DNA of 60,174 nt. Origin: an uncultured Dehalococcoidia bacterium (lineage in GTDB: Bacteria > Chloroflexota > Dehalococcoidia > SM23-28-2). The position numbers and the translations under genes are program-made. The stretch is from positions 1 to 60,174 of the forward strand of contig CAZEJO010000008.1 of NCBI GenBank assembly GCA_964512285.1, read 5' to 3'. Every line of letters starts with the position of its first letter. The first letter of the stretch is position 1. The notes under the pieces are model-generated. The model saw nothing but the letters and a program-made list of their open reading frames with translations, ran no database searches and had not been told where the DNA came from. Shown piece after piece: positions 6,747 through 26,230 of the stretch.

Positions 6747-6798
6747 CTCAGCAACCCCTTTCGAGCGTCATGGCCGCATGTCATGTTGAGTGCCATTG

Positions 6799-9779: not shown

Positions 9780-9858
9780 GCCTTCGAGCAGCCGGTGCGG
9801 CGGGAAGGCCGGCGCTTTCTGCTGAGCGGCTAGAGGCTCCTGTCGTGCAGGTCCGCTG

Positions 9859-10353: not shown

Positions 10354-10389
10354 CACAAACCTCTCGTTTCTTCGTGCCCGCCAACGGTC

Positions 10390-11702: not shown

Positions 11703-12992
11703 GTGTTTCACAGCAAGAGGTCGTATCTGCTACTCATCTTGTTCGCAATCACTGCCTTCGTGGGCCTGGGCTTTGTCGCGTGCGGCGATGATGGGGAGGA
11801 AGGCCCGCAGATCGGAAGCGTCGACGTCCTGGGCCTCTGGGGCGACGAAGAGCTCGTCTCCTTCGAGGCGATGGTTGCCCCTTGGGAGACGGACACAGGC
11901 GGCGACATGGCGTTCACCGGCACGCGGGACATCACCACCGTCCTCGCCACCCGGGTTGAGGGCGGCAACCCGCCCGATGTCGCCATCCCGGCGGAGGTAG
12001 GACGGTTTCAGCAGTTCGCTCGGGAAGGTAAGCTGACACCTCTCTCTGCCTGTAAGGGGCTGGAGGAGACGGTAAAGGCCAACTACCCTCAGGGGTTCAT
12101 CGACCTGGGCACCGTGGACGGCGTCCTGTACGGTTTCTTCATGAAGGCCGATACCAAGGGGACGATCTGGTACAATCCCAAGTTCTTCGCTGACAACGGC
12201 TACGAGCCGCTCACGGCCAGCAGCACCTGGGACGACCTCATCGCCCTTTCCGACCAGATCCTGGCGGACGGCACTCCGCCCTGGTCCATCGGTGTCGAGA
12301 GTGGTGAGGCCAGCGGCTGGCCCGGCACCGACTGGATTCAGCAGATCCTCCTGAACGAGGCCGGCGGCGACGTCTACGACGGCGTCATCGACGGCTCCGT
12401 CCCCTTCACGGATGCGAAGGTCAAGGATGCCTGGGAGAAGTTCGGCGAGATCGCGCTCACCGAGGGTTACACGGTGCAAGGGGGCGCCGAGGGGATCAAC
12501 GCCACGAACTTCGTAAACTCCAGCTACCCGCCCTTCGAGAGCCCGCCTACGGCGGCCATGGTCTACCTGGGCGGCTTCGCCTCCGGCTTCATCACCGATC
12601 AGTTCCCGGACGCTGTCGCTGGTGAAGACTTCGATTTCTTCCCGTTCCCTGGTGGTGGGGTCACCGGCGGTGCCAACATTGTCTACGCCTTCAACGGCGA
12701 TGAGACGACCTGCTCCTTCCTCAACTACCTGGCCAGCGCTGAGGCCCAGGCGATCTGGGTGAACAGGGGCGGCTTCACCTCCGTGAACAGCCAGGTGAGC
12801 CTGGATTCCTACCCTGACGCTGTGGCGCGTGCCCAGGCGGAGCAGCTCGCTACTGCCGAGCTCTTCCGCTTCGACCTGGACGACGCCATCGGCGGGGCGA
12901 TCCAGTTGGCGGAATTCGACGGCGTCACTCAGTACCTGGCGAACCCGGGCGACTTGGACGACATCCTGTCGGATATCGAGGCATCTCGGTAG
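11703..12992 (+). CDS. Sugar ABC transporter substrate-binding lipoprotein (alpha-glucoside AglE-like)
   Basis: Lipobox FVAC; GNPPDVA; WYNPK; GVESGEASGWPGTDWI; AGGAGG RBS. Confidence 0.9.
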   Translation: MFHSKRSYLLLILFAITAFVGLGFVACGDDGEEGPQIGSVDVLGLWGDEELVSFEAMVAPWETDTGGDMAFTGTRDITTVLATRVEGGNPPDVAIPAEVGRFQQFAREGKLTPLSACKGLEETVKANYPQGFIDLGTVDGVLYGFFMKADTKGTIWYNPKFFADNGYEPLTASSTWDDLIALSDQILADGTPPWSIGVESGEASGWPGTDWIQQILLNEAGGDVYDGVIDGSVPFTDAKVKDAWEKFGEIALTEGYTVQGGAEGINATNFVNSSYPPFESPPTAAMVYLGGFASGFITDQFPDAVAGEDFDFFPFPGGGVTGGANIVYAFNGDETTCSFLNYLASAEAQAIWVNRGGFTSVNSQVSLDSYPDAVARAQAEQLATAELFRFDLDDAIGGAIQLAEFDGVTQYLANPGDLDDILSDIEASR

Positions 12993-13016
12993 CAGGGCAT
13001 ATCGCGCTCAAGTAAC

Positions 13017-13058
13017 GCGGCGGGGTGGCCTCCGTCGGGCAGAGGCTTGCCCCGCCGC
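13017..13058 (+). other. Intercistronic stem-loop after the binding-protein gene
   Basis: gcggcgggg...ccccgccgc stem; typical mRNA-stabilising hairpin in ABC operons. Confidence 0.6.
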
Positions 13059-13076
13059 ACACGAGCGAGCCGATAG

Positions 13077-14006
13077 ATGGTCGGACGGCGGTGGTGGACC
13101 CCTTGGCTCTGGCTAGCGCCGGCGCTGGTCTTGCTGGGCGTATTTCTCGTCTATCCCGTCGTTGATACCATCCGCCGGAGCTTCCTAGATGAGCGATCGA
13201 AGAACTTCGTCGGGTTCGACAACTACCAGTTCATCATCGATAATCCGCAGCCCCTGGTGAGCGACACCCACTCGGCCCTCCTGAACAACGTCATGTGGCT
13301 CACTCTGTTCACCGTCATCACCGTCTGCCTGGGTCTCATCCTTGCCGTCCTCACCGGACGGGTGCGCTACGAGGCGGTGGCGAAATCGACCATCTTCATT
13401 CCCATGGCCGTCTCCTTCGTCGCCGCTTCTGTTATCTGGCGCTTCATGTACGAGTTCAACACCGAGATCGGCACCGTGAACGCGACGGTCACGTCACTGG
13501 GTGGCGAGCCGACCGCTTGGCTGCAGGACACCGGCGCGCCCCAGACCTGGTTGACCCAGCGAGGGCCGGACACGTTGCCGCAGCCAATTCAGATCAATAA
13601 CCTGGCCCTGATCCTGGTGGGCGTCTGGATGTGGACGGGTTTCGCGATGGTGGTTCTGTCCGCCGGGCTCAAGGGGATCTCTACGGAGGTTCTGGAGGCG
13701 GCCCGCGTGGACGGGGCGAACGAGTGGCAGATCTTCCGGCGGATCATCGTCCCCATTCTCTCGCCGACCATCGTGGTGGTCGCCACCACCCTGGTGATTC
13801 AGGGTCTCAAGAAGTTCGACCTGGTCTGGGTAATGACGGGGGGCCGCTTCAAAACGGACGTGGTGGCCACCCTGTTCTACAAGGAGGCGTTCCGCATCGG
13901 CGACTTCGGGGTGGGTGCCGCCCTGGCGGTGGTTCTCCTTCTCTGGGTGTTGCCGGTCATGGTTATTGGCATCCGGCGGTTTCAGTTCCAGGAGGAGACC
14001 CGCTAG
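13077..14006 (+). CDS. Sugar ABC transporter permease (MalF-like)
   Basis: EAA motif EAARVDGANEWQIF; multiple TM helices. Confidence 0.92.
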   Translation: MVGRRWWTPWLWLAPALVLLGVFLVYPVVDTIRRSFLDERSKNFVGFDNYQFIIDNPQPLVSDTHSALLNNVMWLTLFTVITVCLGLILAVLTGRVRYEAVAKSTIFIPMAVSFVAASVIWRFMYEFNTEIGTVNATVTSLGGEPTAWLQDTGAPQTWLTQRGPDTLPQPIQINNLALILVGVWMWTGFAMVVLSAGLKGISTEVLEAARVDGANEWQIFRRIIVPILSPTIVVVATTLVIQGLKKFDLVWVMTGGRFKTDVVATLFYKEAFRIGDFGVGAALAVVLLLWVLPVMVIGIRRFQFQEETR

Positions 14007-14950
14007 TGGCGAGGCGAAACCCCTCGACGACGGCAGTGGCGGCTTCGTCGCCGTTCACTCTCGCCCTGCAAACCGCGAGGCGTCTAGCGGGGCGGATGCC
14101 GCTCCATCTGGCCCTCATCGGCCTGATGGTTCTATGGAGCATCCCTACCATCGCTCTGCTGGTGAGTTCCTTCCGGGAGGCCACGGCAATTGCCTCCTCG
14201 GGCTGGTGGAATGCTATCAAGAATCCCTTCGCCCTGACCGTCGAGAACTACCAGACGGTGCTGGAGAAGCAGGGGATGGCCCGAGCATTTTTCAACAGCG
14301 TTATCATCACAGTGCCCAGCACCGCGCTGGTGATCCTAGTGGCCGCCTGGGCGGCCTATGCCTTCGCCTGGATGAGGTTCCCGGCGCGGAACTTGCTGTT
14401 CCTCTTGATGGTCGCCTTGCTGGTGGTGCCGGTGCAGATGACTCTCATCCCGGTGTTGCGGCTCTACACCGACCTAACCGTCGACGCTCAGCTGCCGATC
14501 CTGGGCGGGCGGGTCTTCGGCACCAGCAGCTACGTGGGCATCTGGCTGGCCCACACGGCCTACGGCCTGCCCTTCGCCATCTATCTCTTGCGCAACTTCT
14601 TCGGCTCGCTGCCGCGTGACCTCTTCGAATCGGCCTATCTGGACGGCGCATCGGATCTGAGGGTCTTCTTCCGTATCGTCCTTCCCCTATCGATGCCCGC
14701 CATCTCCGCCCTGGCGATCTTCCAGTTCCTTTGGGTTTGGAACGATCTGCTAGTAGCCCTGATCCTCCTGGGGGATCCTGACCTTGCGCCCATGACGCTG
14801 AAGATCTCGAATCTAGTCAGCTCCTTCGGAACCAACTATCAGGTGCTCACGTCGGCCGCCTTCATCTCCATGGCGCTGCCGCTGGTCATCTTCTTCGCCC
14901 TGCAACGCTACTTCGTGCAGGGGATCCTGGCCGGCGCCGTCAAGGGGTAG
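14006..14950 (+). CDS. Sugar ABC transporter permease (MalG-like)
   Basis: ESAYLDGAS, WNDLL, QRYFVQGILAGAVKG. GTG at 14006 overlaps the upstream stop and follows GGAGG. Confidence 0.9.
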   Translation: MARRNPSTTAVAASSPFTLALQTARRLAGRMPLHLALIGLMVLWSIPTIALLVSSFREATAIASSGWWNAIKNPFALTVENYQTVLEKQGMARAFFNSVIITVPSTALVILVAAWAAYAFAWMRFPARNLLFLLMVALLVVPVQMTLIPVLRLYTDLTVDAQLPILGGRVFGTSSYVGIWLAHTAYGLPFAIYLLRNFFGSLPRDLFESAYLDGASDLRVFFRIVLPLSMPAISALAIFQFLWVWNDLLVALILLGDPDLAPMTLKISNLVSSFGTNYQVLTSAAFISMALPLVIFFALQRYFVQGILAGAVKG

Positions 14951-15003
14951 AGCGCCTTCAGACGGGCGGCGATGATACAATGTTTTGGGAGTGAAAACGG
15001 GCG

Positions 15004-16119
15004 ATGGCAACGGTAACCTACGACCACGTGACGAAGCGGTTCGATACCGTCCTCGCGGTCAACGATTTCAACCTGGAGATCTCCGACAAGGAGTTTCTGG
15101 TACTGGTAGGCCCTTCCGGCTGCGGCAAGTCCACCGCCCTGCGGCTGCTGGCCGGCCTGGAAGAGATCACTGAGGGCAAGATCTACATCGGTGACCGGCT
15201 GGTCAACCACGTCCCTGCGAAGGACCGGGACATCGCTATGGTCTTCCAGTCCTACGCCCTCTATCCTCACATGTCCGTGCACGACAACATGGCCTTCGGC
15301 CTGACGTTGCGGAAGGTCCCCAAGGAGGAGATCGGCCGTCGGGTGCGTGAGGCGGCGCAGGTTCTGGGCATCGAGGATCTGCTCAAGCGGAAGCCGAGGC
15401 AGCTATCGGGCGGCCAGCGGCAGCGCGTGGCCCTGGGCCGGGCCATCGTGCGCGACCCGGCGGCGTTCCTTCTGGACGAACCCCTTTCGAACCTGGACGC
15501 CAAGCTGAGGGTGCAGACCCGGGCTGAGCTGAGCAAGCTCCACCAGCGGCTGGGCACCACCTTCATCTACGTTACCCATGACCAGGTGGAGGCTATGACC
15601 ATGGCCACGCGAATCGCCGTGATGAAGGATGGGTTGCTCCAGCAGGTGGGAGCGCCGCAGGAGCTGTACGACCGGCCCAGCAACGTTTTCGTCGCCGGCT
15701 TCATCGGGAGCCCGGCTATGAACTTCTTCCAGGCGAGGGTGAAGGGCCAGCGGGAGGAGATGCACCTGGACATCGACAGCTTTCAGGTGCCGGTCCCAGC
15801 TTCCTGGGTGGACGACCTCCTCCCCTACGCGGGGAAAGAGGTCATCTTCGGCATGCGGCCGGAGAACATCTGTGACCCAGACTGCCAGCCCCCAAGCACC
15901 GACGCGGCGCCAGTGACGGCTATGGTGGATGTCACCGAGGTCATGGGGAGCGAGGTCTTCCTTCACCTGATGGCGGACGGCAAGCCGTTCATGGCGCGAG
16001 TGGATCCCCGGACCAAGGCGCGTCCCGGTCAGGAGATACGGGTTGAATTCGATATGGCCCGGATGCACGTCTTCGCCTCGGAGACGGAGGAGGCCATCGG
16101 CTTAAGGGAGATGCGGTAG
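15004..16119 (+). CDS. Sugar ABC ATPase (MalK/UgpC family)
   Basis: GPSGCGKST, VFQSYALYPHM, LSGGQRQR, DEPLSNLD, FIGSPAMN, TOBE domain. Confidence 0.95.
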   Translation: MATVTYDHVTKRFDTVLAVNDFNLEISDKEFLVLVGPSGCGKSTALRLLAGLEEITEGKIYIGDRLVNHVPAKDRDIAMVFQSYALYPHMSVHDNMAFGLTLRKVPKEEIGRRVREAAQVLGIEDLLKRKPRQLSGGQRQRVALGRAIVRDPAAFLLDEPLSNLDAKLRVQTRAELSKLHQRLGTTFIYVTHDQVEAMTMATRIAVMKDGLLQQVGAPQELYDRPSNVFVAGFIGSPAMNFFQARVKGQREEMHLDIDSFQVPVPASWVDDLLPYAGKEVIFGMRPENICDPDCQPPSTDAAPVTAMVDVTEVMGSEVFLHLMADGKPFMARVDPRTKARPGQEIRVEFDMARMHVFASETEEAIGLREMR

Positions 16120-16289: not shown

Positions 16290-17168
16290 ATGAGGCGAGA
16301 GGACGTCGCCTTCTATTCAGAGGGATGCCGACTGGCGGGATACCTCTATCTTCCCGATGACCTGAAGGGAGGGGAGCGAAGGCCGGCGGTAGTGCTGGCC
16401 CAGGGCTACAGCGGCGTCAAGGAGTTGATCCTTCCCGCGTACGCCGAGCGATTCGCCGGCGAGGGGTCGGTTGCCCTGACGTTCGACTACCGCGGCTTCG
16501 GGAGCAGCGAGGGGCAGCGCGGCAGGTTGCTGGCCCTGGAGCAGGTGGAGGACATCCGCAGTGCCGTGACCTACGTCCGCACTCGCTCAGAGGTAGATGC
16601 CGACCGGATCGGCCTGTGGGGGACCTCCTACGGTTGTGGACTGGTGGTCTACAGTGCGGCCCTGGACGAGCGAGTCAAGGCGGTTGTGGCGCAGATCGGC
16701 ATCGCCGATGGCCTGACCTCGGCCACCCGGGCGCTGAACCCTCAGCAGGTGGAGGTGCTGAGGGCGGGAATCGAGCAAGACCGCAAGCAGCGGGTGCTGA
16801 CCGGACGGGGGATGTATGTGGATCCGTTTGTCATCATCCCCGATCCGGAGATGAAGGCGTTCTTCGAGCGGCATTTTCCGACCATGCCTCACCTGAAGAC
16901 CCAGATTCTCTTCCAGTACGTGGAGGCGCACCTCGAGTTCAGTCCGATATCGGTGGTGGACCGCATTGCGCCGCGGGCGCTGCTGATCATCGCCGCCGAG
17001 CGCGATGTCATCTGCCCGGCCGACGAGCTGGAGCGCATGTACGAGCGCGCCGGCAACCCGAAGAAGTTTGCGCTGATGGAGGGCGTCACCCACTTCGAGT
17101 GCTATGAGGGCCAGGGCATGGAGCGCACGTGCGGCGAGGCCATCGAGTGGTACAAGGCTCACCTGTGA
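16290..17168 (+). CDS. Alpha/beta hydrolase (S15/CocE/FrsA-like)
   Basis: FDYRGFG.SEG, nucleophile elbow GTSYG, C-terminal His (THF); AAGGAGG RBS. Confidence 0.88.
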   Translation: MRREDVAFYSEGCRLAGYLYLPDDLKGGERRPAVVLAQGYSGVKELILPAYAERFAGEGSVALTFDYRGFGSSEGQRGRLLALEQVEDIRSAVTYVRTRSEVDADRIGLWGTSYGCGLVVYSAALDERVKAVVAQIGIADGLTSATRALNPQQVEVLRAGIEQDRKQRVLTGRGMYVDPFVIIPDPEMKAFFERHFPTMPHLKTQILFQYVEAHLEFSPISVVDRIAPRALLIIAAERDVICPADELERMYERAGNPKKFALMEGVTHFECYEGQGMERTCGEAIEWYKAHL

Positions 17169-17170
17169 GG

Positions 17171-18763
17171 TCAGTATCTTACTGACTTACCGTATTTCTC
17201 CCGCAAGACGGTCTTCAGAACCTTCATGGCCGGATTGCGGGGCAGGGCATCGATGAAATCGACGGACCGGGGCTTCTTGTAGCTGGCCAGGCGCTCCTTG
17301 CAGAAGTCGATGACCTCCTCCTCGGTCAGCGTTTCCCCCGGCTTGGTAACGACGATAGCCTTGACGTTCTCGCCCCACTGCTCATCGTAGACGCCGATGA
17401 CCGCCGCCTCCAGGATCTTGGGGTGCTTGTGGAGGACCTCCTCGATCTCCGCCGGATAGATGTTCTCGCCGCCGCTGACGATCATGTCCGTCTTGCGGTC
17501 CACGATGTATAGGAAGCCTTCCTCATCCTGGCGAACAGCGTCGCCTGAGTGGAACCAGCCGTTCCTGAAGGCCGCGGCGGTCGCCTCCGGGTTGTTGTAG
17601 TATTCCTTCATGATCGTGCGACCGCGATAGACGGCTTCGCCCACCTCGCCCACTGGCACATCCCGGTCCTGGTCGTCCACCACCCGGATCTCGACGAAGG
17701 GGAGGGCTCTGCCCACCGAGGCCACCTTTCGCTCCGCGTCGGAGGGCCTCAGCAGGGAGACCACCGCATTCGTCTCCGTCTGGCCGAAGCAGTCGAAGAT
17801 CTTGACGTGGGGGAAGGCTTCCATGATCCGTCTTCGCAGGTCGGTGGTCAGGATGGCCGCGCCTGTGATCCAAGCCTTCAGGGAGCTGGTATCGTACTTG
17901 TCGAGCCCGGGCATCTGCAGCAGGAAGTTGGCCATGGCGGGGATCAGGAGAACCGAGTCGCACTTCTCCCGCTCCAGCAGTTGCATGATCTCCACCGGGT
18001 TGAAGACCTCGGTGGTTAGGATGACTGTCGCCCCAAATAGGAGATTGGCCAAGCAAGTGCCAAAGGAGGCTAGATGGAAGATGGGAGGGGCAGCACAGGC
18101 TCGCCAGATCGACATGTCGCCGAGGTCGGGTTCGCGGCTGAGCTCAAGAATAGCCAGCGTCCAGATGATGGTCTGACCTTTATGGGTAAGGACGGCTCCC
18201 TTGGGCCTGCCGGTGGTTCCAGCGGTGTACATGATGAAGGCGGGATCGTCCTCCTCTACCAGGACCAGCGGCTCATCGTCGGGATACTTCTGGAGAAGGC
18301 TCTCGAAGTGATGCATCCCTTCCACCGGCTTCTCGCTCACAGAGATGTACTGCCTAACCTTGGGGAGGTCCTTCTGAATCCCTCTGACAGTGTTGACGAA
18401 AGCCTCTCCCAGGATGAAGGCCACGGCATCGGCATTGTCGACGATATACGCGATCTCTTCAGGGTGGAGGCGAAAGTTCAAGGGAACGGCTATCGCGCCG
18501 ATCTTGGCCATGGCAAGGTAGGCCTCCAGGTATTGGTTGCAGTTGAAGAGAAGGATGGCTACCTTCTCCCCTTTCTTCACTCCCATACCCATGAGGGCGT
18601 GCGCCAGGCAATTGATGCGGGCGTTGAACTCACGATAGGTCAGGCGCGTATCGCCGTAGATAACGGCCTCTCTATCGGGAAACTTGCGGGCGTTGCTGGC
18701 GATTATCTCCCCCAGAAGGAGCCTCTTTGCCAGCGCCTCTTCGATGGCCTGCTTCGATTGCAT
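17171..18763 (-). CDS. Acyl-CoA synthetase (long-chain fatty-acid--CoA ligase family)
   Basis: YTAGTTGRPKG, FGQTE, GWFHSGD, DRKTDMIVSGGENIYPAEIE, LPRNPAMKV. Confidence 0.93.
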   Translation of the reverse strand: MQSKQAIEEALAKRLLLGEIIASNARKFPDREAVIYGDTRLTYREFNARINCLAHALMGMGVKKGEKVAILLFNCNQYLEAYLAMAKIGAIAVPLNFRLHPEEIAYIVDNADAVAFILGEAFVNTVRGIQKDLPKVRQYISVSEKPVEGMHHFESLLQKYPDDEPLVLVEEDDPAFIMYTAGTTGRPKGAVLTHKGQTIIWTLAILELSREPDLGDMSIWRACAAPPIFHLASFGTCLANLLFGATVILTTEVFNPVEIMQLLEREKCDSVLLIPAMANFLLQMPGLDKYDTSSLKAWITGAAILTTDLRRRIMEAFPHVKIFDCFGQTETNAVVSLLRPSDAERKVASVGRALPFVEIRVVDDQDRDVPVGEVGEAVYRGRTIMKEYYNNPEATAAAFRNGWFHSGDAVRQDEEGFLYIVDRKTDMIVSGGENIYPAEIEEVLHKHPKILEAAVIGVYDEQWGENVKAIVVTKPGETLTEEEVIDFCKERLASYKKPRSVDFIDALPRNPAMKVLKTVLREKYGKSVRY

Positions 18764-19015: not shown

Positions 19016-20692
19016 ATGTCTGAGGAAGAGAAGCTGCGAGAGATCGAGAGGGCACAGGAGGAGTACGAGAGGCTGGCTGCTCAGTTCTTTAGCCGCTACC
19101 CCCGGGTGACCGAGAGACGGACGACGTTTGGCGTGCCTCTCAAGCCTCTCTATACACCCCTGGACGTCGCCGGCAGCGACTACCTGCGCGACCTGGGCTT
19201 TCCGGCTGGCTACCCCCTCACCCGTGGGGCGAGCCCCTTGGGCTATCGCACCAAGGAATGGACGCGGCGGCAGGTGGTGGGGCTGGGCACGGCCGAGGAG
19301 ACTAATGAGAGGCTGCGCTATCTGTTCGAGCAGGGCCAGACGGGCTTCAGCGTGTGCGGCATGGGCTATGCTCCCTACGAATCGAGCGATGAGCGCTCGC
19401 TGGGGATTCTGGGTCGTGGCGGCGTCTGGATCGACACCCTGTACGACATCGAGACGCTGTTCCAGGGCATCGACATGGAACGGATCACAATCAACCAGAT
19501 CGGCGAGTCGGTGGCGATTTTCGCCATGATCCTCTCGGAGGCCCGGCGGCGGGGCATCCCCTTCGAGAACCTGCGGGGCACCATTCAGAACGTGGTCTTG
19601 CCAGGGGGTGAAGGGCCGGGGCTGCGAGGCAACCACGGCGTGGATGTGGTCGAGTACTGCTGCCGCCATCTGCCTCGCTGGAATCACACCAGCGTATCCG
19701 CCCGCGATGTCCGCGAGCAGGGCATCTCCTCGGTGCAAGAGATCGCTGTGGCCATGTACGGGGGAGTGGGCACGATCAATGCGGCTCTGGCCCGAGGGAT
19801 CGACATTGACGTCGTAGCACCTCGCGTGACGTTCTTCCTGAGCGCGGAGGACGAGTTCCTGGAGGAGGTGGCCAAGTATCGGGCGGCGCGGCGCATGTGG
19901 GCTCGCCTGATGCGCGAGCGGTTCGGCGCCAAGGACCCGCGCTCCTGGCTGATGCGTTTCCACGTCCAGACCTCGGCGATTAGCCTCACAGCCCAGCAGC
20001 CGCTGCAGAACATCATTCGCTCGACGATCCATGCGCTGGCTGCCGTGCTTGGCGGTGCGCAGTCCATGTCGGTCAACTCTTTTGATGAAGTCCTCGCCAT
20101 TCCCACCGAGGCGGCGGCCATCCTCTCGCTGCGCACTCAGCAGATCATCCTCCACGAGACGGACGCGGCGGTCGTGATCGACCCGCTGGGAGGCTCCTAT
20201 TGCATCGAGGCTCTGACCAACCAACTGGAGGATGAGGCGGGAAAGCTCCTGGCTCATCTGGAGGAGATGGGTGGGGAGAAGGCCTGGGCCTACATGTGGG
20301 AGGAGGCCCACCAGGCGGGCTACCGTCGCCAGCAGGCCGTCGATACAGGTGAAAGGGCGATGGTAGGGGTCAACTGCTACGTGATGGAGGAAGAAGAGGA
20401 GAAGGCGCTGGGGCTGGACGTCGGCCAGGTCTTCGAGTACGACCCCACCTGGCGGGACAAGCAGATCGCTCGCCTGGAGAAGGTGAAGCGAGAACGCGAC
20501 GCTCAGAAGGTCGAGGCGGCCAAGAAGCGGCTGGTGGCGGCTTATGAGGCCAGGGAGAACATCGTCGAGCCGATGATGGAGGCGGTGCAGGCCTATCTGA
20601 GCATCGGCGAGATCGTCGAGCTGCTGGCGGCAGTGTACGGTCTGGATGAGCTGGAGAAGCGGCACGGCTTCTATTTGAGCTTCCTCTACTAG
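19016..20692 (+). CDS. B12-dependent acyl-CoA mutase large (substrate-binding) subunit, divergent active site
   Basis: YPLTRG, WTRRQ, TAEETNER, GTIQN, EEVAKYRAARRMW, FHVQT, ALAAVLGGAQS, NSFDE, DPLGGSY. ATG at 19016 follows GAGGGG. Confidence 0.92.
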   Translation: MSEEEKLREIERAQEEYERLAAQFFSRYPRVTERRTTFGVPLKPLYTPLDVAGSDYLRDLGFPAGYPLTRGASPLGYRTKEWTRRQVVGLGTAEETNERLRYLFEQGQTGFSVCGMGYAPYESSDERSLGILGRGGVWIDTLYDIETLFQGIDMERITINQIGESVAIFAMILSEARRRGIPFENLRGTIQNVVLPGGEGPGLRGNHGVDVVEYCCRHLPRWNHTSVSARDVREQGISSVQEIAVAMYGGVGTINAALARGIDIDVVAPRVTFFLSAEDEFLEEVAKYRAARRMWARLMRERFGAKDPRSWLMRFHVQTSAISLTAQQPLQNIIRSTIHALAAVLGGAQSMSVNSFDEVLAIPTEAAAILSLRTQQIILHETDAAVVIDPLGGSYCIEALTNQLEDEAGKLLAHLEEMGGEKAWAYMWEEAHQAGYRRQQAVDTGERAMVGVNCYVMEEEEEKALGLDVGQVFEYDPTWRDKQIARLEKVKRERDAQKVEAAKKRLVAAYEARENIVEPMMEAVQAYLSIGEIVELLAAVYGLDELEKRHGFYLSFLY

Positions 20693-20747
20693 AGGGTAAG
20701 ACCAGGCAGGGCTGAAGCCCCGCAGCTACGATCCTCTGGAGTGACCT

Positions 20748-21158
20748 ATGACTGGAGAGAAGAAGATTCGCTTCCTGCTGGTGGCCGACACGCCCGGTCA
20801 CACCACCGGTTACTACGTGGTGGCCAGGGCCCTGCGGGAAGCCGGCATCGAGGTGATCCTGGGCGGCTTTCAGCAGCCGTCCGGCATGGTAGAGGCGGCG
20901 GCGCAGGAAGACGTGGACTACATCGGCTACCGCATCATGGATCGAGAGCCGTGCCTTGTCGTCTCCCTGCTGATGGAGCGGCTGAAGGAGAGGGGGCTGG
21001 AGCACGTTCAGGTGGTGGCAGGAGGCATCATCCCCAGGCAGGACATTCCCAAGCTCAAGGCGATGGGCGTGGGCCAGATCTTCCGGCCGGGCGCGAAGCT
21101 GGCGGACATTGTGGCCTACGTGAAGGGCCACGCCCCCAGGAGCGCTGGGTCGGCTTGA
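20748..21158 (+). CDS. Acyl-CoA mutase small cobalamin-binding subunit
   Basis: GHTTG..VVARALREAGIEVI, QEDVD.IG, AGGIIP..D, GV..IF.PG. Confidence 0.9.
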   Translation: MTGEKKIRFLLVADTPGHTTGYYVVARALREAGIEVILGGFQQPSGMVEAAAQEDVDYIGYRIMDREPCLVVSLLMERLKERGLEHVQVVAGGIIPRQDIPKLKAMGVGQIFRPGAKLADIVAYVKGHAPRSAGSA

Positions 21159-21380: not shown

Positions 21381-23507
21381 ATGACGGAAGCGCGAGTGTT
21401 CGCTATCGATGCCGGTGGCACCATGACCGACGCCTTTGTGGTGCTGGAGGACGGGCGGTTCGCGGTTGGGAAAGCGCAGACCACGCCGGACGATGAGTCC
21501 GAGGGCGTCCTGAGATCGTTTGAAGATGCCATCGCCGGCCTGGACGGGGACACCGGGGCGGCCGCGACGGGCCTGGCCGCCACCATCTACTCGGGCACGC
21601 TTATGCTCAACCGTCTGCTTCAGCGAGAGGGAGAGGGGGGCATAGGCGTCATCACGACCGCCGGCTTCGAGGATGTCCTGCGCTTCGGTCGGGCGTTCCA
21701 ATCGTATGCCGGCTACCCATACAGTGAGCGGCTCCACGCCAGGTCGCACGGCTACCCGGAGCCTATCGTTCCCCGCAGCCTCGTGCGGGGGGTGCGGGGG
21801 CGTATCCACCTCATCGGGATGGAGATGATCCCGCTGTACGAGGGGGAAGCACGGGAGGCCATCGGCTACCTGCTGGATCGGGGAGTGAGGGCCGTCTGCA
21901 TCTGCTTCCTCTACTCGTACCAGAACCCCAGCCACGAGCGGCGGATGGCCGAGATCGCGCGAGAGGTCATGAGCGAGCGCGGCGTGGACATCCCTTTGTA
22001 CCTATCAAGCGAGCAGAACCCCGTTCGGGGCGAACTGCCACGGCTGAACAGCTTGATCCTGGAGGTCTACGCCGCCCGGCCGTCGCGGCTCCAGCTCGTC
22101 CGGATGCGAGAGCGGCTCAAGGAGCTGGGGTCGCCTGCTCCTTTCCGCATCCTTACCTCCTACGGCGGAACTGTCTCCCCAGAGCACGAGTGGCTGGTCT
22201 CCACGCTCGTCTCCGGTCCCATCGGCGGGATTATCGGGGCAAACCGTCTGGGAGATCACCTGGGGATCGACAACCTGGTGTGCGCCGACATCGGCGGAAC
22301 GAGCTTTGACGTCGGCCTGATCACCGAGGGCCACCATGCCATCCGTACCGAATGGGCGTTGGCGCAGTTCGTGCTCAACACTCCGATGATCGCCATGGAC
22401 TCCATCGGGGCGGGCACGGGCACCTACGTGAGGCTCGACCCGGTGATCCGGCGCATCAACCTGGGGCCCGATTCCGCTGGCCATCGCGTGGGAGTCTGCT
22501 ACGAGGCCGGCGGGGTGGATACGCCGACAGTCACCGACTGTCACGTGGTTTTGGGCTACGTGAATCCCGACTACTTCCTCGGCGGGGAAATTCCGCTGAG
22601 TGCGGAGCGAGCGCGGCAGGCGCTCAAGGATAAGATCGCCCAGCCGCTAGGGATAGAGCCCGAGGAGGTGGCCTGGGGGATTATCCAGCTCCTGGAGACG
22701 CAGATGCGGGATCACCTCGCGGCCATGATCCTCGGCCTCGGGTACTCGCCGGAGAACTACCACCTGCTGACGTACGGGGGCGGCGGGCCTCTGCATGTGG
22801 CAGCGCTGAGCCGGGGGTTGCAGTTTGAGGGGGTTCTAGTGCCCTCGTGGGCAGCGGCCTTCTCCGCCTACGGCTGCGCCTGTGCGGACTGCGCCTATCG
22901 CTACGACCGTACGGTCGACAAGGTTCTGCCGCCCGATCGCTCAGGTCACCAGGCGGTTGCAGGGCTGCTGCGCCATGCCTGGGCTGAGATCCGCGAGCGC
23001 CTCGCTGGGGAACTGGGCCGCGATGGCCTCGACCCAGAGCGTATGGTCTTCCAGCCCTATGTGCGAATGCAGTACCGGGGCATGCTGGACGACCTGGAGA
23101 TTCCTTCGCCTTCAGCGGAGCCCTCTCCCGAAGACCTGGATGCCATCATCGCCGAGTACGAGCGTCTCTTCGAGCGCATCTTCGCGCGGGCGGCGAAAAG
23201 CGCTGAGGCGGGCTACGTAGTGACCAAGGCCATCGGGGTTGGCATCGTGCCCACGGAGAAGCCGCGCATTCCCGAGCTGCCTCTCCAGGGCCAGGAGCCG
23301 GCGAAAGGCTCCATGAAGGGGCGGCGTCAGATTTTCTGGGACGGGTCCTGGACGACGGCGGAGCTCTTCGAGATGGATAGGCTCCAGCCGGGGAACGTTG
23401 TGGCAGGCCCCGCCGTTGTGGAGGCTCCGGCGACTACCCTTCTGGTGCCCCCAGGATGGCGGGCCAACCTGGACAAGAACCTAATCTTCAGGGTGGAGGA
23501 GGTATAG
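21381..23507 (+). CDS. acxA: Acetone carboxylase-like beta subunit (hydantoinase A/oxoprolinase family)
   Basis: IDAGGTMTD.F, GKAQTTP.DES, YSGT.MLNR, VSGPIGG, DIGGTSFD, DSIGAGTG, LGPDSAG, YGGGGPLH. Confidence 0.88.
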   Translation: MTEARVFAIDAGGTMTDAFVVLEDGRFAVGKAQTTPDDESEGVLRSFEDAIAGLDGDTGAAATGLAATIYSGTLMLNRLLQREGEGGIGVITTAGFEDVLRFGRAFQSYAGYPYSERLHARSHGYPEPIVPRSLVRGVRGRIHLIGMEMIPLYEGEAREAIGYLLDRGVRAVCICFLYSYQNPSHERRMAEIAREVMSERGVDIPLYLSSEQNPVRGELPRLNSLILEVYAARPSRLQLVRMRERLKELGSPAPFRILTSYGGTVSPEHEWLVSTLVSGPIGGIIGANRLGDHLGIDNLVCADIGGTSFDVGLITEGHHAIRTEWALAQFVLNTPMIAMDSIGAGTGTYVRLDPVIRRINLGPDSAGHRVGVCYEAGGVDTPTVTDCHVVLGYVNPDYFLGGEIPLSAERARQALKDKIAQPLGIEPEEVAWGIIQLLETQMRDHLAAMILGLGYSPENYHLLTYGGGGPLHVAALSRGLQFEGVLVPSWAAAFSAYGCACADCAYRYDRTVDKVLPPDRSGHQAVAGLLRHAWAEIRERLAGELGRDGLDPERMVFQPYVRMQYRGMLDDLEIPSPSAEPSPEDLDAIIAEYERLFERIFARAAKSAEAGYVVTKAIGVGIVPTEKPRIPELPLQGQEPAKGSMKGRRQIFWDGSWTTAELFEMDRLQPGNVVAGPAVVEAPATTLLVPPGWRANLDKNLIFRVEEV

Positions 23508-23511
23508 GCTC

Positions 23512-25728
23512 ATGGCTCGGGCAAAGGGCGACGTAGGTGGCGCTCCCATCGGCTGGGACGGGAAGACCGTTCTGGCGATGCTGGAAGAGAGCGAGCGCCT
23601 GTTCCAGGAAACGGGGCGCTATCAGGGCATCGATCGGCTTGAGCTCAAGGAAGGAGACCACTTCCGATACGAGCGGGCTTTTGCCAAGTTGCGCGGCGCT
23701 CTGGTGGCTGCCCGCGAGACCGCGCTGCACATATCGGCCTCCCCCATCGTGCGCAACATCGGCGAGCTGTGCTTCGCCCTCTACACGCCCGAGGGCGATT
23801 CCGTCGCCGTCTCCACCGGCATCATGGTCCACGTTCACACCATGAGCGAGGCTCTCAAGTGGATGGTTCGCAATAACTACGAACGCGACCCCGGCATTCG
23901 GCCTGGCGACATATTTACCAACAACGACCCCGACGTGGGGAACGTCCACACCACTGACGTGCACACCATGGTTCCTATCTTCTGGGAGGATGAGCTTATC
24001 GGCTGGGCCAGCGGGGTAACCCATCAGGTGGATATCGGCGCCAATACGCCGGGCCACGACCCAATCACGCCCACCAGTCGGTTTGAGGACGGCTTCCACC
24101 TGACCTGCGAGCGGATCGGGGAGAATGAGCAGATCCGCCAGGATCACCGCCTCCGCTCACAGCGGCAGGTGCGTTCCCCCTTGTACTGGGACCTGGACGA
24201 GAAGTGCCGCGCGGCTGGCGCTTACCTGATCCGTGACGCTGTTCATCGCTTCATTGCTGAAGAAGGCATTGACTACTACAAGCGCTTCACGCGGGAGGTG
24301 GTGGAGGAAGGCCGGCGCATCTTCATGGCACGAGTCCGAGAGCGGCTGCTGCCCGGCCGCTACCGGGCTGCAGCCTTCGTTGGCATTCCATGGAAGGAAG
24401 AGGCGTGGCAGCCGAAGGCCCGCAAAGACTTCATCTGCCACTCTCCCATGGAGATCGTCATTGGCCGGGACGGTGACTTCTTCCTCACCATGGAGGGAGC
24501 GAGCGCGCCAGGTTTCCATGCGTTCAACTGCGCCGAAGGGCCGATGCAGGGAGCGATCTGGGTGCTGCTCTCTCAGATGCTTGTCTACGACGGCAAGGTG
24601 AACGATGGGTCATACCTGGCGCTGCGCCATTACTTCCCGCCGGGAACCTGGTGCAACGCCCAGGATCCCCAACTGTCGTACTCCACGCCGTGGGCCTTTC
24701 TCATCCCCGCTTTCACCGGCCTCACTCGTTGCCTGTCCAGAGCGTTGTTTGCCCGCGGCTATCGGGAGGAGGTGGTCTCCGGCTACGGCTTCACCGGAGA
24801 CGCCATCCAGGGAGGCGGCACCCTCGCTTTCAACGGCGAGTACTGGCCGGCCGCTAATTTCGAGATAAGCGCCGTCGGCCTGGGCGCCAGCGCCGTGCGC
24901 GACGGGCTGGACTGGGGCTACGCCATGTGGAACCCGGAGTCGGACCAGGGCGATGCCGAACTGTGGGAGCTGTTAGAGATAGGAATTCCCTATCTAGCCC
25001 GGCGGGTAAAGGCGAACACGGCTGGCTACGGCAAGTACCGCGGCGGTTCGGGCTGGGAAGCTTTGCGGCTGCTCGTGGGGAACCGTGATGCTGAACTCTA
25101 CATGGCCCGGGCGGACGGGCTGACCTTCATGGGCTCCGGGATCTTCGGCGGTTATCCGCAGGCGACCAGCTACCGCCTCTGGAGCAGAGGCAGTGAGATT
25201 ATGGATCGGGCTGCCAAAGGGCAACCCTACCCCCTGGGCGACGACCCGGACACGGAGGAGTTTGAACAGCTAGTGGGTGGCGAGGTAACGCGAAGAGCCA
25301 CCGCGATGATGATGCCGGAGATCTTCCACGACAGAGATGTGCTCCACTACGTTCTTTCCGGTGGACCCGGCTGCGGTGACCCTCTGGAGCGCTCTGGGCA
25401 GCGGGTGGTGGACGATATCAATGATGGCATCTTCAGCGAGCGCACTGCGAGAGACGTGTTCGGCGTTGTGGCCAACCGCGACGAGGGGCAGGAGAAGTGG
25501 ACGTTGGACAAGGAAGCGACGGACGCGCGACGGCAGGAGATCCGACGCCTGCGGGCCGAACGCTCTGTGCCCTACGAGGAGTTCTGGCAGCGCGAGCGTC
25601 AGCTCATCGAAGAGGGGCAGTTGGGCGAGCCCGTTCGGGGCATGCTTCGCGAAAGCATGGGTCTATCGCAAGCTTGGGCGCAGGAGTTTCGGGCCTTCTG
25701 GAAGCTGCCCGAGGGCTTCCAGCCGTAG
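23512..25728 (+). CDS. acxB: Acetone carboxylase-like alpha subunit (hydantoinase B family)
   Basis: PIGWDGKT, ARETA..ISASPIV...GELCF, GNVH..D, GVTH..D (metal-ligand positions), LDEK.R.AG, WNPE.D.G, GYGKYRGG.G. Confidence 0.88.
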   Translation: MARAKGDVGGAPIGWDGKTVLAMLEESERLFQETGRYQGIDRLELKEGDHFRYERAFAKLRGALVAARETALHISASPIVRNIGELCFALYTPEGDSVAVSTGIMVHVHTMSEALKWMVRNNYERDPGIRPGDIFTNNDPDVGNVHTTDVHTMVPIFWEDELIGWASGVTHQVDIGANTPGHDPITPTSRFEDGFHLTCERIGENEQIRQDHRLRSQRQVRSPLYWDLDEKCRAAGAYLIRDAVHRFIAEEGIDYYKRFTREVVEEGRRIFMARVRERLLPGRYRAAAFVGIPWKEEAWQPKARKDFICHSPMEIVIGRDGDFFLTMEGASAPGFHAFNCAEGPMQGAIWVLLSQMLVYDGKVNDGSYLALRHYFPPGTWCNAQDPQLSYSTPWAFLIPAFTGLTRCLSRALFARGYREEVVSGYGFTGDAIQGGGTLAFNGEYWPAANFEISAVGLGASAVRDGLDWGYAMWNPESDQGDAELWELLEIGIPYLARRVKANTAGYGKYRGGSGWEALRLLVGNRDAELYMARADGLTFMGSGIFGGYPQATSYRLWSRGSEIMDRAAKGQPYPLGDDPDTEEFEQLVGGEVTRRATAMMMPEIFHDRDVLHYVLSGGPGCGDPLERSGQRVVDDINDGIFSERTARDVFGVVANRDEGQEKWTLDKEATDARRQEIRRLRAERSVPYEEFWQRERQLIEEGQLGEPVRGMLRESMGLSQAWAQEFRAFWKLPEGFQP

Positions 25729-25738
25729 GAGGGGCGAG

Positions 25739-26230
25739 ATGGACAGACGAGTGGCCGAGGACTTGATCGACGGGCGGCTATCCTGGCCTCAGCTTAGAGA
25801 GATCCTCTTCCATCCTAAGGACCCTGAGCGGTTCCAGGTAGTCATGGACATCTTGCGAGAGCGCCTCGGCTGGGAAGAACCGGTTCTCCTCCCTCTAGCC
25901 GAGCACCTCTACGTGGTGCAGAAGGGAAGCCAGCGGGTGGTGCGCTGCGACTGCGGGTTCGAGTTCGGGGACTGCCGCGAAAACTGGAAGACGAAGGCGC
26001 GGGTCCTTGTGCGCAACGACGAATCGCTGCTGCGGGAGCTCTACCCGCAGATGATGCACAGTGACCCCGAGTGGATGGAGCTGCGGGAGTTCTACTGCCC
26101 GGGCTGCTTCGCCCTGCTGGAGGTTGAGGCGGTGCCTCCCGGCTATCCGGTCATGTTCGATTTCGAGCCCGACATCGATGGATTCTACGAATGGTTGGGG
26201 TTGCCGCTGCCGTCAAGCATCAGCGATTAG
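25739..26230 (+). CDS. acxC: Acetone carboxylase-like gamma subunit
   Basis: KDPERF, PLAEHLYVV, CDCG.EFGD.RENWK, REFYCPGC, P.YPV..DFEPDIDGFY. Start MDRRV follows GGAGG. Confidence 0.9.
   Translation: MDRRVAEDLIDGRLSWPQLREILFHPKDPERFQVVMDILRERLGWEEPVLLPLAEHLYVVQKGSQRVVRCDCGFEFGDCRENWKTKARVLVRNDESLLRELYPQMMHSDPEWMELREFYCPGCFALLEVEAVPPGYPVMFDFEPDIDGFYEWLGLPLPSSISD

What the first reader, a model, noticed from the sequence alone, without database searches (positions are those of the whole stretch)
19016..20692. Acyl-CoA mutase with an active site matching no characterised subfamily I know
Seen, aligned by eye to P. shermanii MCM numbering: RQY89AG becomes RQVVG; SVAFD becomes SVCGM; GTIQND..R207 becomes GTIQNVVLPGGEGPG; SISGY243H244..E247 becomes SVSARDVRE. 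The scaffold is intact (Q197, E247, FH.QT, NSFDE). Established: the 89-equivalent residue sets specificity (Tyr MCM, Phe ICM, Ile HCM, Leu pivalyl-CoA mutase). Inference: Val plus Arg-Asp in place of Tyr-His implies a new, probably non-dicarboxylate substrate.
Basis: partly seen in the sequence, partly recalled or inferred. Interest (0 to 1): 0.8.

Follow-up and report, generated by a model that had tools for sequence, protein, structure and literature searches.

The report
Uncharacterised B12 acyl-CoA mutase subfamily
This gene and the small gene after it encode a two-part vitamin-B12 enzyme of the kind that rearranges carbon skeletons, from a conserved branch whose substrate pocket and B12-binding motif differ from every solved relative, so its reaction is unknown.

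Summary
The ORF 19016-20692(+) is a full-length acyl-CoA mutase large subunit. It has Val for Tyr89, SVCGM for SVAFD, a loop 7 residues shorter in place of the Arg207 loop, and Arg-Asp for Tyr243-His244. The CoA and adenosyl scaffold is kept.

This is not decay. The same substitutions hold across a clade of at least 121 proteins at 57-96% identity. V90, G118, G120, Y121 and R233 are present in 121/121, and Asn/Asp234 in 121/121. dN/dS is 0.13-0.15.

The clade has support 1.0 and falls outside the clade holding MCM-, ICM- and HCM-type sequences. It always travels with its own small B12-binding subunit (20748-21158), found in 43 of 44 loci with room. That subunit is also atypical: D-x-x-G-H-x-x-G for DxHxxG, and GYRIM for the SxL motif. 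N-terminal fusions of the two parts exist.

The adjacent hydantoinase/acetone-carboxylase-like genes are not a conserved partner. Recurrent neighbours are CoA ligases or transferases, TRAP transporters, enoyl-CoA hydratases and further mutases.

The substrate remains unknown. I rate it a new variant of a known kind.

The parts
19016..20692 (+). Large (substrate-binding, TIM-barrel) subunit of the atypical acyl-CoA mutase; the longest ORF starts at GTG 19007, the likely start is ATG 19016
   Evidence: PF01642 475.7 bits over profile 2-512. TIGR00641 450 bits, above its cut-off. Best solved relative is HcmA 4r3u, E 9e-108, with Foldseek TM 0.76. Family-invariant V90, G118, G120, Y121 and R233. 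dN/dS 0.13-0.15.
20748..21158 (+). Small B12-binding subunit partner, with atypical motifs DTPGHTTG (for DxHxxG) and IGYRIMD (for the SxL motif)
   Evidence: PF02310 50.6 bits and TIGR00640 95 bits. In the alignment to 2yxb and HcmB 4r3u_C, Pro16 lies opposite the canonical Asp while His and Gly are kept. A family-type small subunit follows the large one in 43 of 44 loci with room. The motifs are conserved.
17171..18763 (-). Divergently transcribed AMP-forming acyl-CoA synthetase; a plausible supplier of the CoA ester
   Evidence: PF00501 and PF13193. NF004837 521 bits, above its cut-off. Kept next to the mutase at 85-90% identity in L090, L091, L097, L098, L113, L114, L125 and L128, but not in L092 or in distant relatives.
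21381..23507 (+). Hydantoinase A/oxoprolinase-like subunit; adjacent to the mutase but not a conserved partner
   Evidence: PF01968, PF19278 and PF05378. Below the ApcC and CapA equivalog cut-offs. Found beside the mutase only in the window and in L090, out of 42 loci compared. A 222-base gap separates it from the small subunit.
23512..25728 (+). Hydantoinase B-like subunit
   Evidence: PF02538 231 bits.
25739..26230 (+). Acetone-carboxylase gamma-like small subunit
   Evidence: PF08882 135 bits. The start at ATG 25739 has GGAGG upstream.

Best explanation
19016-20692 and 20748-21158 encode the large and small subunits of a functional adenosylcobalamin-dependent acyl-CoA mutase. It belongs to a distinct, conserved and so far uncharacterised subfamily.

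Inferred mechanism, by homology: the small subunit binds the cobamide with its conserved His as the lower ligand. Binding of an acyl-CoA in the large subunit's barrel triggers Co-C homolysis. The 5'-deoxyadenosyl radical abstracts a hydrogen, and the thioester group migrates to the neighbouring carbon.

Shown here: the pocket that selects the substrate is rebuilt.
- A small Val sits at the Tyr89 position.
- Gly-Met-Gly-Tyr replaces Phe-Asp-Leu-x.
- A short Gly/Pro-rich acidic loop (PxGEGP) replaces the Arg207 loop.
- Arg-Asn (Arg-Asp in this genus) replaces Tyr243-His244.

Inference: the substrate differs from methylmalonyl-, isobutyryl- and 2-hydroxyisobutyryl-CoA. Asn/Asp234 takes over His244's hydrogen bond to the thioester oxygen. 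Invariant Arg233 anchors a polar, possibly carboxylate, group. The variable hydrophobic positions 196, 198 and 200 accommodate a substituent that differs between subclades.

The acid is probably imported (ABC transporter here, TRAP elsewhere) and activated by the neighbouring CoA ligase or by CoA-transferases.
For: - Fold and scaffold: full-length Pfam and TIGRFAM matches; HcmA and MCM are the best solved relatives; T86, R88, Q89, Q194, H319, Q321, T322, D360 and E361 are each 121/121.
- Selection: dN/dS is 0.126-0.152 in the 10 pairs computed.
- Family characters: V90 121/121; G118 121/121; M119 117/121; G120 and Y121 121/121; P199 118/121; G201 120/121; E/D202 114/121; R233 121/121; N234 117/121 plus D 4/121.
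- Distinct clade: of the 150 representatives listed at 50% clustering, one full-length one stands for the family (62% identity), and the next full-length hit is 45%. Tree support is 1.0, and the clade lies outside the 75-member clade with MCM-, ICM- and HCM-type motifs.
- Partner: a family-type small subunit is on the same strand in 43 of 44 loci with room, 39 of them within 555 bases. His and Gly of the B12 motif are kept. Four of the 120 listed homologues are N-terminal B12-domain fusions carrying the same atypical motif.
- Cofactor support: the genome encodes one MeaB chaperone.
- Context: acyl-CoA metabolism recurs next to relatives, including CoA ligases, family III and acetyl-CoA-type CoA-transferases, ECH, ACAD, TRAP transporters and further mutases with MeaB.
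- Weak hint of co-transcription: contigs from RNA-labelled libraries of relatives bridge the large and small subunit genes.
Against: - No activity, cofactor-binding or substrate data exist.
- His244, kept in every solved relative, is absent. The canonical Asp of DxHxxG and the Ser of SxL are replaced. Catalysis or cobamide binding could therefore be impaired or different.
- The AlphaFold model is only moderate: pLDDT 73.9, and below 50 over residues 64-90 and 356-377, which include the RQV and NSFDE motifs. No coordinates were available to check that R233 points into the pocket.
- No PduO-type adenosyltransferase was found in the 87%-complete genome.
- Gene neighbourhoods are heterogeneous and name no substrate.
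- RNA-library contigs may contain DNA.
- Many loci in the counts are near-identical copies (for example L091 = L098, and L109/L120/L124/L126/L154), so the counts overstate independence.
Confidence: 0.72

Rival explanations
1. It belongs to an already characterised or proposed subfamily that I could not compare. Candidates are ethylmalonyl-CoA mutase, pivalyl-CoA mutase, the Kyrpidia (R)-3-hydroxybutyryl-CoA mutase, phenylsuccinyl/benzylmalonyl-CoA mutase IaaGH, and the alkylmalonyl-CoA mutases ActD/MatB.
For: - IaaGH sits in an operon for indoleacetate catabolism with a CoA ligase, a family III CoA-transferase and an ACAD (PMC8360864, introduction and passages read).
- ActD/MatB are split mutases of the 'HCM subclass', with distant relatives in thermophiles (PMC5719088, passages read).
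- HcmA is also this protein's best solved relative.
- Some relatives' loci carry two family III CoA-transferases, an SDR, ACADs and ECH.
- NCBIfam returned no ECM-, HCM- or PCM-specific model for any of the 11 mutase sequences scanned, so failing its cut-offs excludes little.
Against: - None of the 120 best homologues carries a specific name or comes from a named isolate.
- No family member was found on 72,556 plasmids, where the best hit is 43%.
- The window's cluster has no family III CoA-transferase or ACAD.
- From recall, not tested: ECM keeps Tyr89, Arg207 and His244 and is a C-terminal fusion; PCM has Leu at position 89 and keeps His.
- Dicarboxyl-CoA mutases are expected to keep the Arg207 loop, which is deleted here.
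Confidence: 0.13
2. It is a non-catalytic or regulatory mutase paralogue. It would resemble the inactive beta subunit of Propionibacterium MCM, stabilising, loading or regulating a neighbouring canonical mutase.
For: - The catalytic His244 and Tyr243 are lost.
- The Asp of the Asp-His pair and the SxL motif of the B12 domain are altered.
- In about 13 of the 26 relatives' loci annotated, another mutase large subunit lies within about 7 kb, sometimes with MeaB. These are L091/L098, L096, L100, L101, L108, L109, L119, L120, L122, L129 and L148 by Pfam, plus L154 by tblastn alone.
Against: - Inactive beta subunits have lost the CoA and adenosyl scaffold and the B12 His. Here these are invariant.
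- The replaced pocket residues are themselves invariant across phyla (R233, GMGY), as expected for a working site.
- The protein keeps its own B12 subunit and exists as B12-mutase fusions.
- In this window no other mutase lies nearby; the paralogues are on contigs C4 and C60.
Confidence: 0.08
3. It works with the adjacent hydantoinase/acetone-carboxylase-like enzyme in one pathway. An ATP-dependent carboxylation or ring opening would be followed by CoA activation and then skeletal rearrangement.
For: - The genes share a strand and lie in the order mutL-mutS-hyuA-hyuB-gamma.
- The arrangement recurs in one genome of the same genus (L090).
- Contigs from an RNA-labelled library cover both modules.
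Against: - The module is present beside the mutase in only 2 of the 43 places compared: the window plus L090 of 42 loci.
- Other genomes of the same genus have an ADP-forming CoA-ligase-like gene (L091/L098) or unrelated genes (L092) there.
- A 222-base gap separates the two modules.
- RNA-library contigs of relatives diverge right after the small subunit, at 21167.
- I could construct no chemically sensible role for a mutase after a beta-keto acid.
Confidence: 0.07

Closest known systems
2-hydroxyisobutyryl-CoA mutase HcmAB (Aquincola tertiaricarbonis, PDB 4R3U)
   Same: - Two-subunit architecture of similar sizes (561 + 136 aa here).
- Best sequence match among solved structures: 364 bits, E 9e-108 for the large subunit and 64 bits for the small.
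- Best fold match, TM 0.76.
- Shared TxRQ, GTxQ, FHxQT and NxxDE scaffold.
   Different: - HcmA has RQIAG, STDFD, an unshortened QADILKEY...loop and SGYH. This protein has RQVVG, SVCGM, a loop 7 residues shorter than in human MCM, and SARD.
- HcmB has the canonical LDGHDRG and GVSLL motifs, against DTPGHTTG and GYRIM here.
- In the tree, HCM-motif sequences (P0142) sit in the canonical clade, not with this family.
Methylmalonyl-CoA mutase (P. shermanii 1REQ, human 2XIJ)
   Same: Same fold and radical-enzyme scaffold. The genome has its own canonical copy on contig C60 with RQYAG, SVAFD, ARGTY and SGYH.
   Different: - Tyr89, the Arg207 loop, Tyr243 and His244 are all replaced.
- NF006944 scores 369 bits against a cut-off of 876.
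- The B12 domain is a separate protein.
Isobutyryl-CoA mutase / IcmF (PDB 4XC6)
   Same: Same superfamily. The fused members of this family carry the B12 domain at the N-terminus, as IcmF does.
   Different: - Only 136 bits over residues 178-544.
- NF045497 scores 171 bits against a cut-off of 1500.
- There is no G-protein domain.
- The genome's ICM-like paralogue on C4 keeps SGYH and a Gln-type loop.
Proposed alkyl/aryl-substituted malonyl-CoA mutases (IaaGH; ActD/MatB)
   Same: They are split mutases described as the HCM subclass (ActD/MatB) or as MCM-like (IaaGH). They act on substrates that have both a carboxylate and a bulky hydrophobic group. That would suit a pocket with a new Arg and enlarged hydrophobic space (PMC8360864, PMC5719088; passages read).
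   Different: No sequence was available for comparison. The companion genes of those pathways (CCR and epimerase; IaaL and IaaF) are absent from the window.

Membership tests
Acyl-CoA mutase superfamily (PF01642 / TIGR00641) | Full-length mutase barrel domain | tested here: met
   PF01642 475.7 bits over profile 2-512/512. TIGR00641 450.4 bits against a cut-off of 303.8. Foldseek to 4r3u gives TM 0.76.
Acyl-CoA mutase superfamily (PF01642 / TIGR00641) | Conserved CoA- and adenosyl-binding scaffold (TxRQ, GTxQ, FHxQT, NxxDE) | tested here: met
   T86, R88, Q89, Q194, H319, Q321, T322, D360 and E361 are each 121/121.
Acyl-CoA mutase superfamily (PF01642 / TIGR00641) | B12-binding domain with the DxHxxG, SxL and GG motifs | tested here: inconclusive
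   His, Gly and GG are present. The canonical Asp aligns with Pro16 (variable in the family), with an invariant Asp two residues upstream. SxL is replaced by R-I-M.
Acyl-CoA mutase superfamily (PF01642 / TIGR00641) | Adenosylcobalamin-dependent 1,2-rearrangement activity | not testable with these tools
   Needs an enzyme assay.
Methylmalonyl-CoA mutase | Tyr89, Arg207, Tyr243 and His244; NF006944 cut-off | tested here: not met
   Val, a deleted loop, Arg and Asp occupy these positions. NF006944 scores 369 bits against 876.
Isobutyryl-CoA mutase / IcmF | Phe at the Tyr89 position and Gln at the Arg207 position (recalled), with SGYH kept; NF045497 cut-off | tested here: not met
   Val90, no alignable loop residue, and SARD. 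NF045497 scores 171 bits against 1500.
2-hydroxyisobutyryl-CoA mutase | Ile90 and Asp117 (RQIAG, STDFD) | tested here: not met
   The alignment to 4r3u_A shows V90 and C117.
   Val in 121/121. No PCM reference sequence was available, so other features are untested.
Ethylmalonyl-CoA mutase | Tyr89, Arg207 and His244 kept, with a C-terminal B12 domain in one chain (recalled) | not testable with these tools
   No named ECM sequence and no ECM model turned up in NCBIfam. By recall the features are not met.
IaaGH-type phenylsuccinyl-CoA mutase pathway | Operon with a family III CoA-transferase (IaaL) and a decarboxylating ACAD (IaaF) | tested here: not met
   Neither is in the window's cluster. Family III transferases, ACADs or both occur beside some distant relatives (L092, L102, L108, L129, L149). 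No IaaG sequence was available.

The most novel reading that the evidence does not exclude
The family catalyses a rearrangement not yet assigned to any mutase. One example would be the substituted succinyl-CoA/alkyl- or aryl-malonyl-CoA interconversion long postulated in anaerobic hydrocarbon and aromatic-acid catabolism; another would be a different polar branched acyl-CoA. It would use Arg233 as a new anchor and Asn/Asp234 in place of the otherwise universal His244. Its co-evolved B12 domain (displaced Asp, Arg-x-Met for Ser-x-Leu) would bind the cobamide in a modified way, or prefer a cobamide with a different lower ligand.
Probability: 0.3. Interest if true: 0.8.

Novelty: new variant of a known kind. 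Interest (0 to 1): 0.55.

Why it matters
Only a handful of acyl-CoA mutase specificities are known: MCM, ICM/IcmF, ECM, HCM/RCM and PCM. Each new one exposed a metabolic route and gave a tool for making branched building blocks.

This clade is conserved in several bacterial phyla of sediments and groundwater. It lacks the Tyr-His pair kept in every solved relative, and it carries an altered cobalamin-binding signature. It should therefore either perform a new rearrangement or show that the accepted catalytic residues are dispensable.

The adjacent CoA ligase offers a cheap experimental handle on the substrate.

The searches also show that this is one of many divergent mutase-like clades in metagenomes. 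The family's chemical range is probably much wider than the characterised set.

Tried and rejected
- The search for related loci on genome contigs with the family alignment chose generic peptide patterns.
- NCBIfam cannot discriminate subfamilies. Only four mutase models answered for any of the 11 mutases scanned.
- tblastn against plasmids, run to harvest named ECM/HCM references, gave only 'methylmalonyl-CoA mutase (family protein)' or 'acyl-CoA mutase large subunit family protein' names. The best identity was 43%.
- ESM Atlas gave only generic 'acyl-CoA mutase large subunit' clusters.
- Rfam found nothing in the window, so there is no cobalamin riboswitch.
- The promoter and terminator scans were at chance level.
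- Papers with the residue tables were not held: PMC4551191, PMC3346121 and PMC4392272. PMC2847961 and PMC6759758 held nothing useful on residues.
- Six literature searches found no description of this clade or of a mutase with these motifs.
- The listing of 3-hydroxyisobutyrate dehydrogenase sequences in the 90% cluster of P0050 is not due to similarity or fusion. I drew no conclusion from it.
- Family not found in 400 other genomes of the phylum sample.
- Family not found in 301 genomes of the phylum of L031's genome. At most 4 candidates per genome were scored there, so misses are possible.
- Family not found in the five genomes of L008, L014, L019, L031 and L053.
- I considered an iaa-like pathway and an acetone-related pathway for the window. 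Both were rejected for lack of the companion genes and lack of conserved linkage.
- Complex prediction was not used, because a large/small subunit pair would pass by likeness to solved structures.
- Depth figures and uncovered parts in the laid runs were not interpreted.
Full report
**What is there**

The window is 60 kb of about 63% G+C. It is contig C8 of a 1.89-Mb, 65-contig, 87%-complete genome whose name the tools do not give.

The finding covers an ORF on the + strand from GTG 19007, or ATG 19016, to 20692. Among orthologues, the two residues after the GTG start (positions 2-3) vary while the sequence from the Met onward is conserved. A GAGGGG lies 9 nt upstream of the ATG.

The protein matches Pfam MM_CoA_mutase over the whole profile (475.7 bits). 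It also passes TIGR00641 (450 bits, cut-off 304). It is far below the equivalog cut-offs for MCM (369 vs 876) and IcmF (171 vs 1500).

**Check of the observation**

- RQVVG lies opposite RQYAG (human MCM), RQIAG (HcmA, 4r3u) and RQFAG of 5req. Foldseek's listing titles 5req as the Y89F mutant, so V90 is the Tyr89 equivalent.
- SVCGM lies opposite SVAFD and STDFD.
- SARD lies opposite SGYH.
- The GTIQ...EY segment is 27 residues against 34 in human MCM. The stretch bearing Arg207 has no counterpart.
- An Arg in 'GLRGN' aligns with the Arg/Lys of the downstream 'PSMR/K' motif of canonical enzymes, not with Arg207.

The scaffold motifs are intact.

**Is it decay?**

No, for four reasons.

1. The word-index search listed 120 best homologues at 57-96% identity. 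Eight thousand candidates were scored, and all had E <= 0.001. In an alignment of these plus the query (n = 121):

| Position | Count |
|---|---|
| V90 | 121/121 |
| Position 91 | V 69, M 41, I 10, L 1 |
| Position 117 | C 84, T 35, A 2 |
| G118 | 121/121 |
| M119 | 117/121 |
| G120, Y121 | 121/121 |
| P199 | 118/121 |
| G201 | 120/121 |
| E/D202 | 114/121 |
| G208 | 121/121 |
| N209 | 120/121 |
| R233 | 121/121 |
| Position 234 | N 117, D 4 |
| R236 | 121/121 |

The Asp at 234 is the minority state (4 of 121).

2. dN/dS between the window's gene and five orthologues was 0.126-0.152 in the ten pairs computed. The orthologues came from three genomes of the same genus and two metagenome contigs. 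The script then stopped on an identical pair.

3. In the exhaustive search of 50%-identity representatives, 15,856 proteins had E <= 0.001. Among the 150 listed, one full-length representative stands for the family (P0036, 62%). There are also fragments: P0123, P0229 and P0246. P0124 (52%, two stretches) carries canonical motifs. The next full-length hit drops to 45%.

4. I built a FastTree of 143 sequences on 539 columns. It held 18 family members, the genome's two paralogues, and 123 of the 147 representatives P0125-P0271. The 24 representatives outside 480-760 aa were dropped. The family is a clade with support 1.0. Its sisters are P0125 and P0126, which also have Arg at the Tyr243 position. 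It lies outside the 75-member clade that contains sequences with MCM-type (RQYAG/ARGTY/SGYH), ICM-type and HCM-type (RQIAG/STDFD) motifs, including the genome's own MCM.

The same search shows many other mutase-like representatives with unrecognisable pocket motifs. This is one of many uncharacterised branches, though an unusually well conserved one.

**The partner**

Fifty-five bases downstream lies a 136-aa B12-binding protein at 20748-21158 (PF02310 50.6 bits; TIGR00640 95 bits).

I compared 51 loci, taken from genomes of the same order, a sample of another phylum, and a metagenome pattern scan.
- 49 carried a family large subunit.
- 44 of those had at least 316 bases downstream.
- 43 of the 44 had a family-type small subunit on the same strand.
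- 39 were within 555 bases, and 4 lay about 2.2-2.5 kb away behind a second mutase gene.
- The exception, L123, ends 1.9 kb downstream.
- Several loci are near-identical copies, so the independent number is smaller. There were 39 distinct small-subunit sequences.

The small subunit is itself atypical. Aligned to 2yxb and HcmB (4r3u_C), 'DTPGHTTG' lies opposite 'GLDGHDRG'. His and Gly are kept, but the canonical Asp faces Pro16. 'IGYRIM' lies opposite 'IGVSIL/GVSLL', so the Ser-x-Leu motif is Arg-x-Met.

Across relatives, D[ST]xGH[STA][TA]GY was read in 42 of 43 and IGYRIMD-like in 40 of 43; the regular expression failed on the rest. Canonical small subunits in the same loci have LDGHDRG or FDPHDRG.

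Four of the 120 listed homologues (P0078, P0081, P0097, P0099, 674 aa) are fusions. The atypical B12 domain sits at the N-terminus of the mutase. This supports the view that the two parts work together.

**Surroundings**

In the window the pair is flanked upstream by several genes:
- a divergent AMP-forming acyl-CoA synthetase (17171-18763);
- an alpha/beta hydrolase (16290-17168);
- a sugar-type ABC transporter (11703-16119).

Downstream, after a 222-base gap, lie hydantoinase A-like, hydantoinase B-like and acetone-carboxylase-gamma-like genes (21381-26230).

The carboxylase-like module is not a conserved partner. Of 42 loci compared by tblastn it accompanies the mutase only in L090, a genome of the same genus. 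Other genomes of that genus have an ADP-forming CoA-ligase-like gene overlapping the small subunit's end (L091 = L098), or unrelated genes (L092). The CoA synthetase is kept in the genus (85-90% identity in eight loci) but not beyond it.

I annotated 26 loci with Pfam (281 ORFs). By my reading, the recurrent neighbours are:
- **A CoA-activating enzyme.** AMP-forming ligases are in L091/L098, L146, L147 and L148. Two family III CoA-transferases are in L092 and in L102. Acetyl-CoA hydrolase/transferase is in L092 and L115.
- **TRAP transporters**, often with three or four DctP genes (L109, L120, L146, L147, L150).
- **Enoyl-CoA hydratase** (L096, L100, L108, L119, L146).
- **Acyl-CoA dehydrogenases** (L108, L112, L129, L149).
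- **TetR or GntR regulators.**
- **MmgE/PrpD proteins** (L120, L146, L147).
- **A further mutase large subunit** within about 7 kb, in roughly half of the loci, with MeaB in L109/L120.

Some of these neighbouring mutases are themselves unusual: RQYAG and Arg are kept, but AGAH replaces SGYH and FGNVCG replaces FHxQT.

The picture is catabolism of imported organic acids as CoA esters. It names no substrate.

**Distribution**

| Sample | Genomes with the family |
|---|---|
| Other genomes of the same genus | 5 of 9 |
| Family f85 (same order) | 1 of 6 |
| Family f87 (same order) | 0 of 43 |
| Evenly drawn phylum sample | 0 of 400 others |
| Phylum of L014's genome (a Desulfarculaceae MAG by its record title) | 9 of 351 |
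| Phylum of L031's genome (at most 4 candidates per genome scored) | 0 of 301 |

Source names on homologues mention Nitrospinae, Thermodesulfobacteriota, Rokubacteria/NC10, Binatia, Spirochaetota and Pseudomonadota MAGs. No isolate is named.

Runs labelled salt marsh, marsh, estuary and marine sediment metagenomes hold the stretch. Three hold half or more of its words, and one of those may be the source.

The genome also has a canonical MCM (C60) and an ICM-like paralogue (C4) and one MeaB. No PduO-type adenosyltransferase was found.

**Structure**

AlphaFold2 with a 20-sequence alignment gave pLDDT 73.9 and pTM 0.78. Confidence is low at residues 64-90, 323-331 and 356-377. Foldseek's best hits are HcmA (TM 0.76) and then the MCMs and IcmF. 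The statement that R233 and D234 line the pocket rests on their alignment with Tyr243 and His244, whose roles in MCM I recall from the literature.

**Expression hint**

Contigs from two RNA-labelled libraries belong to relatives; most pieces are 90-95% alike. They cover the large subunit and bridge into the small subunit, with an 18-letter spacer where the window has 65 bases. They then diverge after 21167. DNA can be present in such libraries, so this is only a weak hint of co-transcription.

**How it most likely works**

Shown:
- a complete mutase scaffold;
- a dedicated His-bearing B12 subunit;
- purifying selection;
- a rebuilt but invariant pocket.

Inferred:
- It is an adenosylcobalamin-dependent 1,2-acyl shift on a CoA ester that is none of the known substrates.
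- Asn/Asp234 substitutes for His244's hydrogen bond to the thioester oxygen.
- Arg233 anchors a polar or carboxylate group.
- Val90 and Gly118 enlarge the old carboxylate pocket.
- The variable positions 196 (Y/W/V/C), 198 and 200 (G/W) fit a substituent that differs between subclades.

A substituted dicarboxyl-CoA is at least as plausible but equally unproven. Precedents are the phenylsuccinyl/benzylmalonyl-CoA mutase IaaGH (PMC8360864, introduction and passages read) and the proposed hexylmalonyl-CoA mutase ActD/MatB (PMC5719088, passages read).

**Comparison with the known, and novelty**

It works like an acyl-CoA mutase and is a member of that superfamily. It fails the defining residues of MCM, ICM/IcmF and HCM, all tested here. 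It fails those of PCM on one residue, by recall. ECM, RCM, IaaG and ActD could not be tested, for want of sequences.

Six full-text searches found no description of this clade. The key JBC papers are not in the library, and supplements were not consulted.

I rate it a new variant of a known kind, with moderate-to-high interest for B12 enzymology.

Noticed in passing
window 21381-26230 (+): This is a three-gene hydantoinase A / hydantoinase B / acetone-carboxylase-gamma-like module. It scores far below the acetophenone carboxylase and caprolactamase equivalog cut-offs. It is an uncharacterised ATP-dependent carboxylase or ring-opening enzyme. Beside the mutase it occurs only here and in one genome of the same genus.
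   Followed up: partly
G000 contig C4:73731-75275 (locus L082): This is a third mutase paralogue of the genome. It has ICM-like pocket residues (Phe, AQKE loop, SGYH) but reads WTMRMFAG, with Met where the scaffold Gln of RQ[YF] normally sits.
   Followed up: no
L096:7378-9030, L108:12752-14401, L129:8141-10240, L109:631-2289: These mutase large subunits lie beside relatives of the family. They score about 680-700 bits on Pfam and keep RQYAG and the Arg207-type loop. They have AGAH or CGAH for SGYH and lack FHxQT (FGNVCG or VFASGGA instead). They form another distinct pocket type of unknown assignment.
   Followed up: partly
L101, L119, L122, L108, L148: Up to three different mutase large-subunit genes, with two small subunits, sit in one cluster. 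The cluster also holds TetR, ECH and sometimes ACAD genes. A very divergent type among them reads WLKSLIVCY / PCGYD.
   Followed up: no
cluster of P0050: The 90%-identity cluster of a family member lists five 267-299-aa sequences, four of them named 3-hydroxyisobutyrate dehydrogenase by their source. They come from the same long contigs, yet show no sequence similarity to the mutase. This may be a clustering artefact or overlapping gene calls.
   Followed up: partly
window 36112-40059 (-): This is a 1315-aa signalling protein. It has a MEDS domain, five PAS domains, GGDEF and an HD-GYP-type HD_5 domain. A separate HD_5 protein follows at 40584-42014.
   Followed up: no
window 4827-11232: This is a group of redox genes: a TPP-dependent 2-oxoacid:ferredoxin oxidoreductase-like protein, an FrhB/FdhB-like F420-related subunit, a glyoxalase-fold protein and a luciferase-like oxidoreductase. 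A luciferase-like gene and a TPP enzyme also lie near the mutase in L107.
   Followed up: no
window 20696-20762: In contigs of two RNA-labelled libraries from relatives, the spacer between the large and small subunit genes is 18 letters instead of 65. The contigs diverge from the window right after the small subunit, at 21167.
   Followed up: partly
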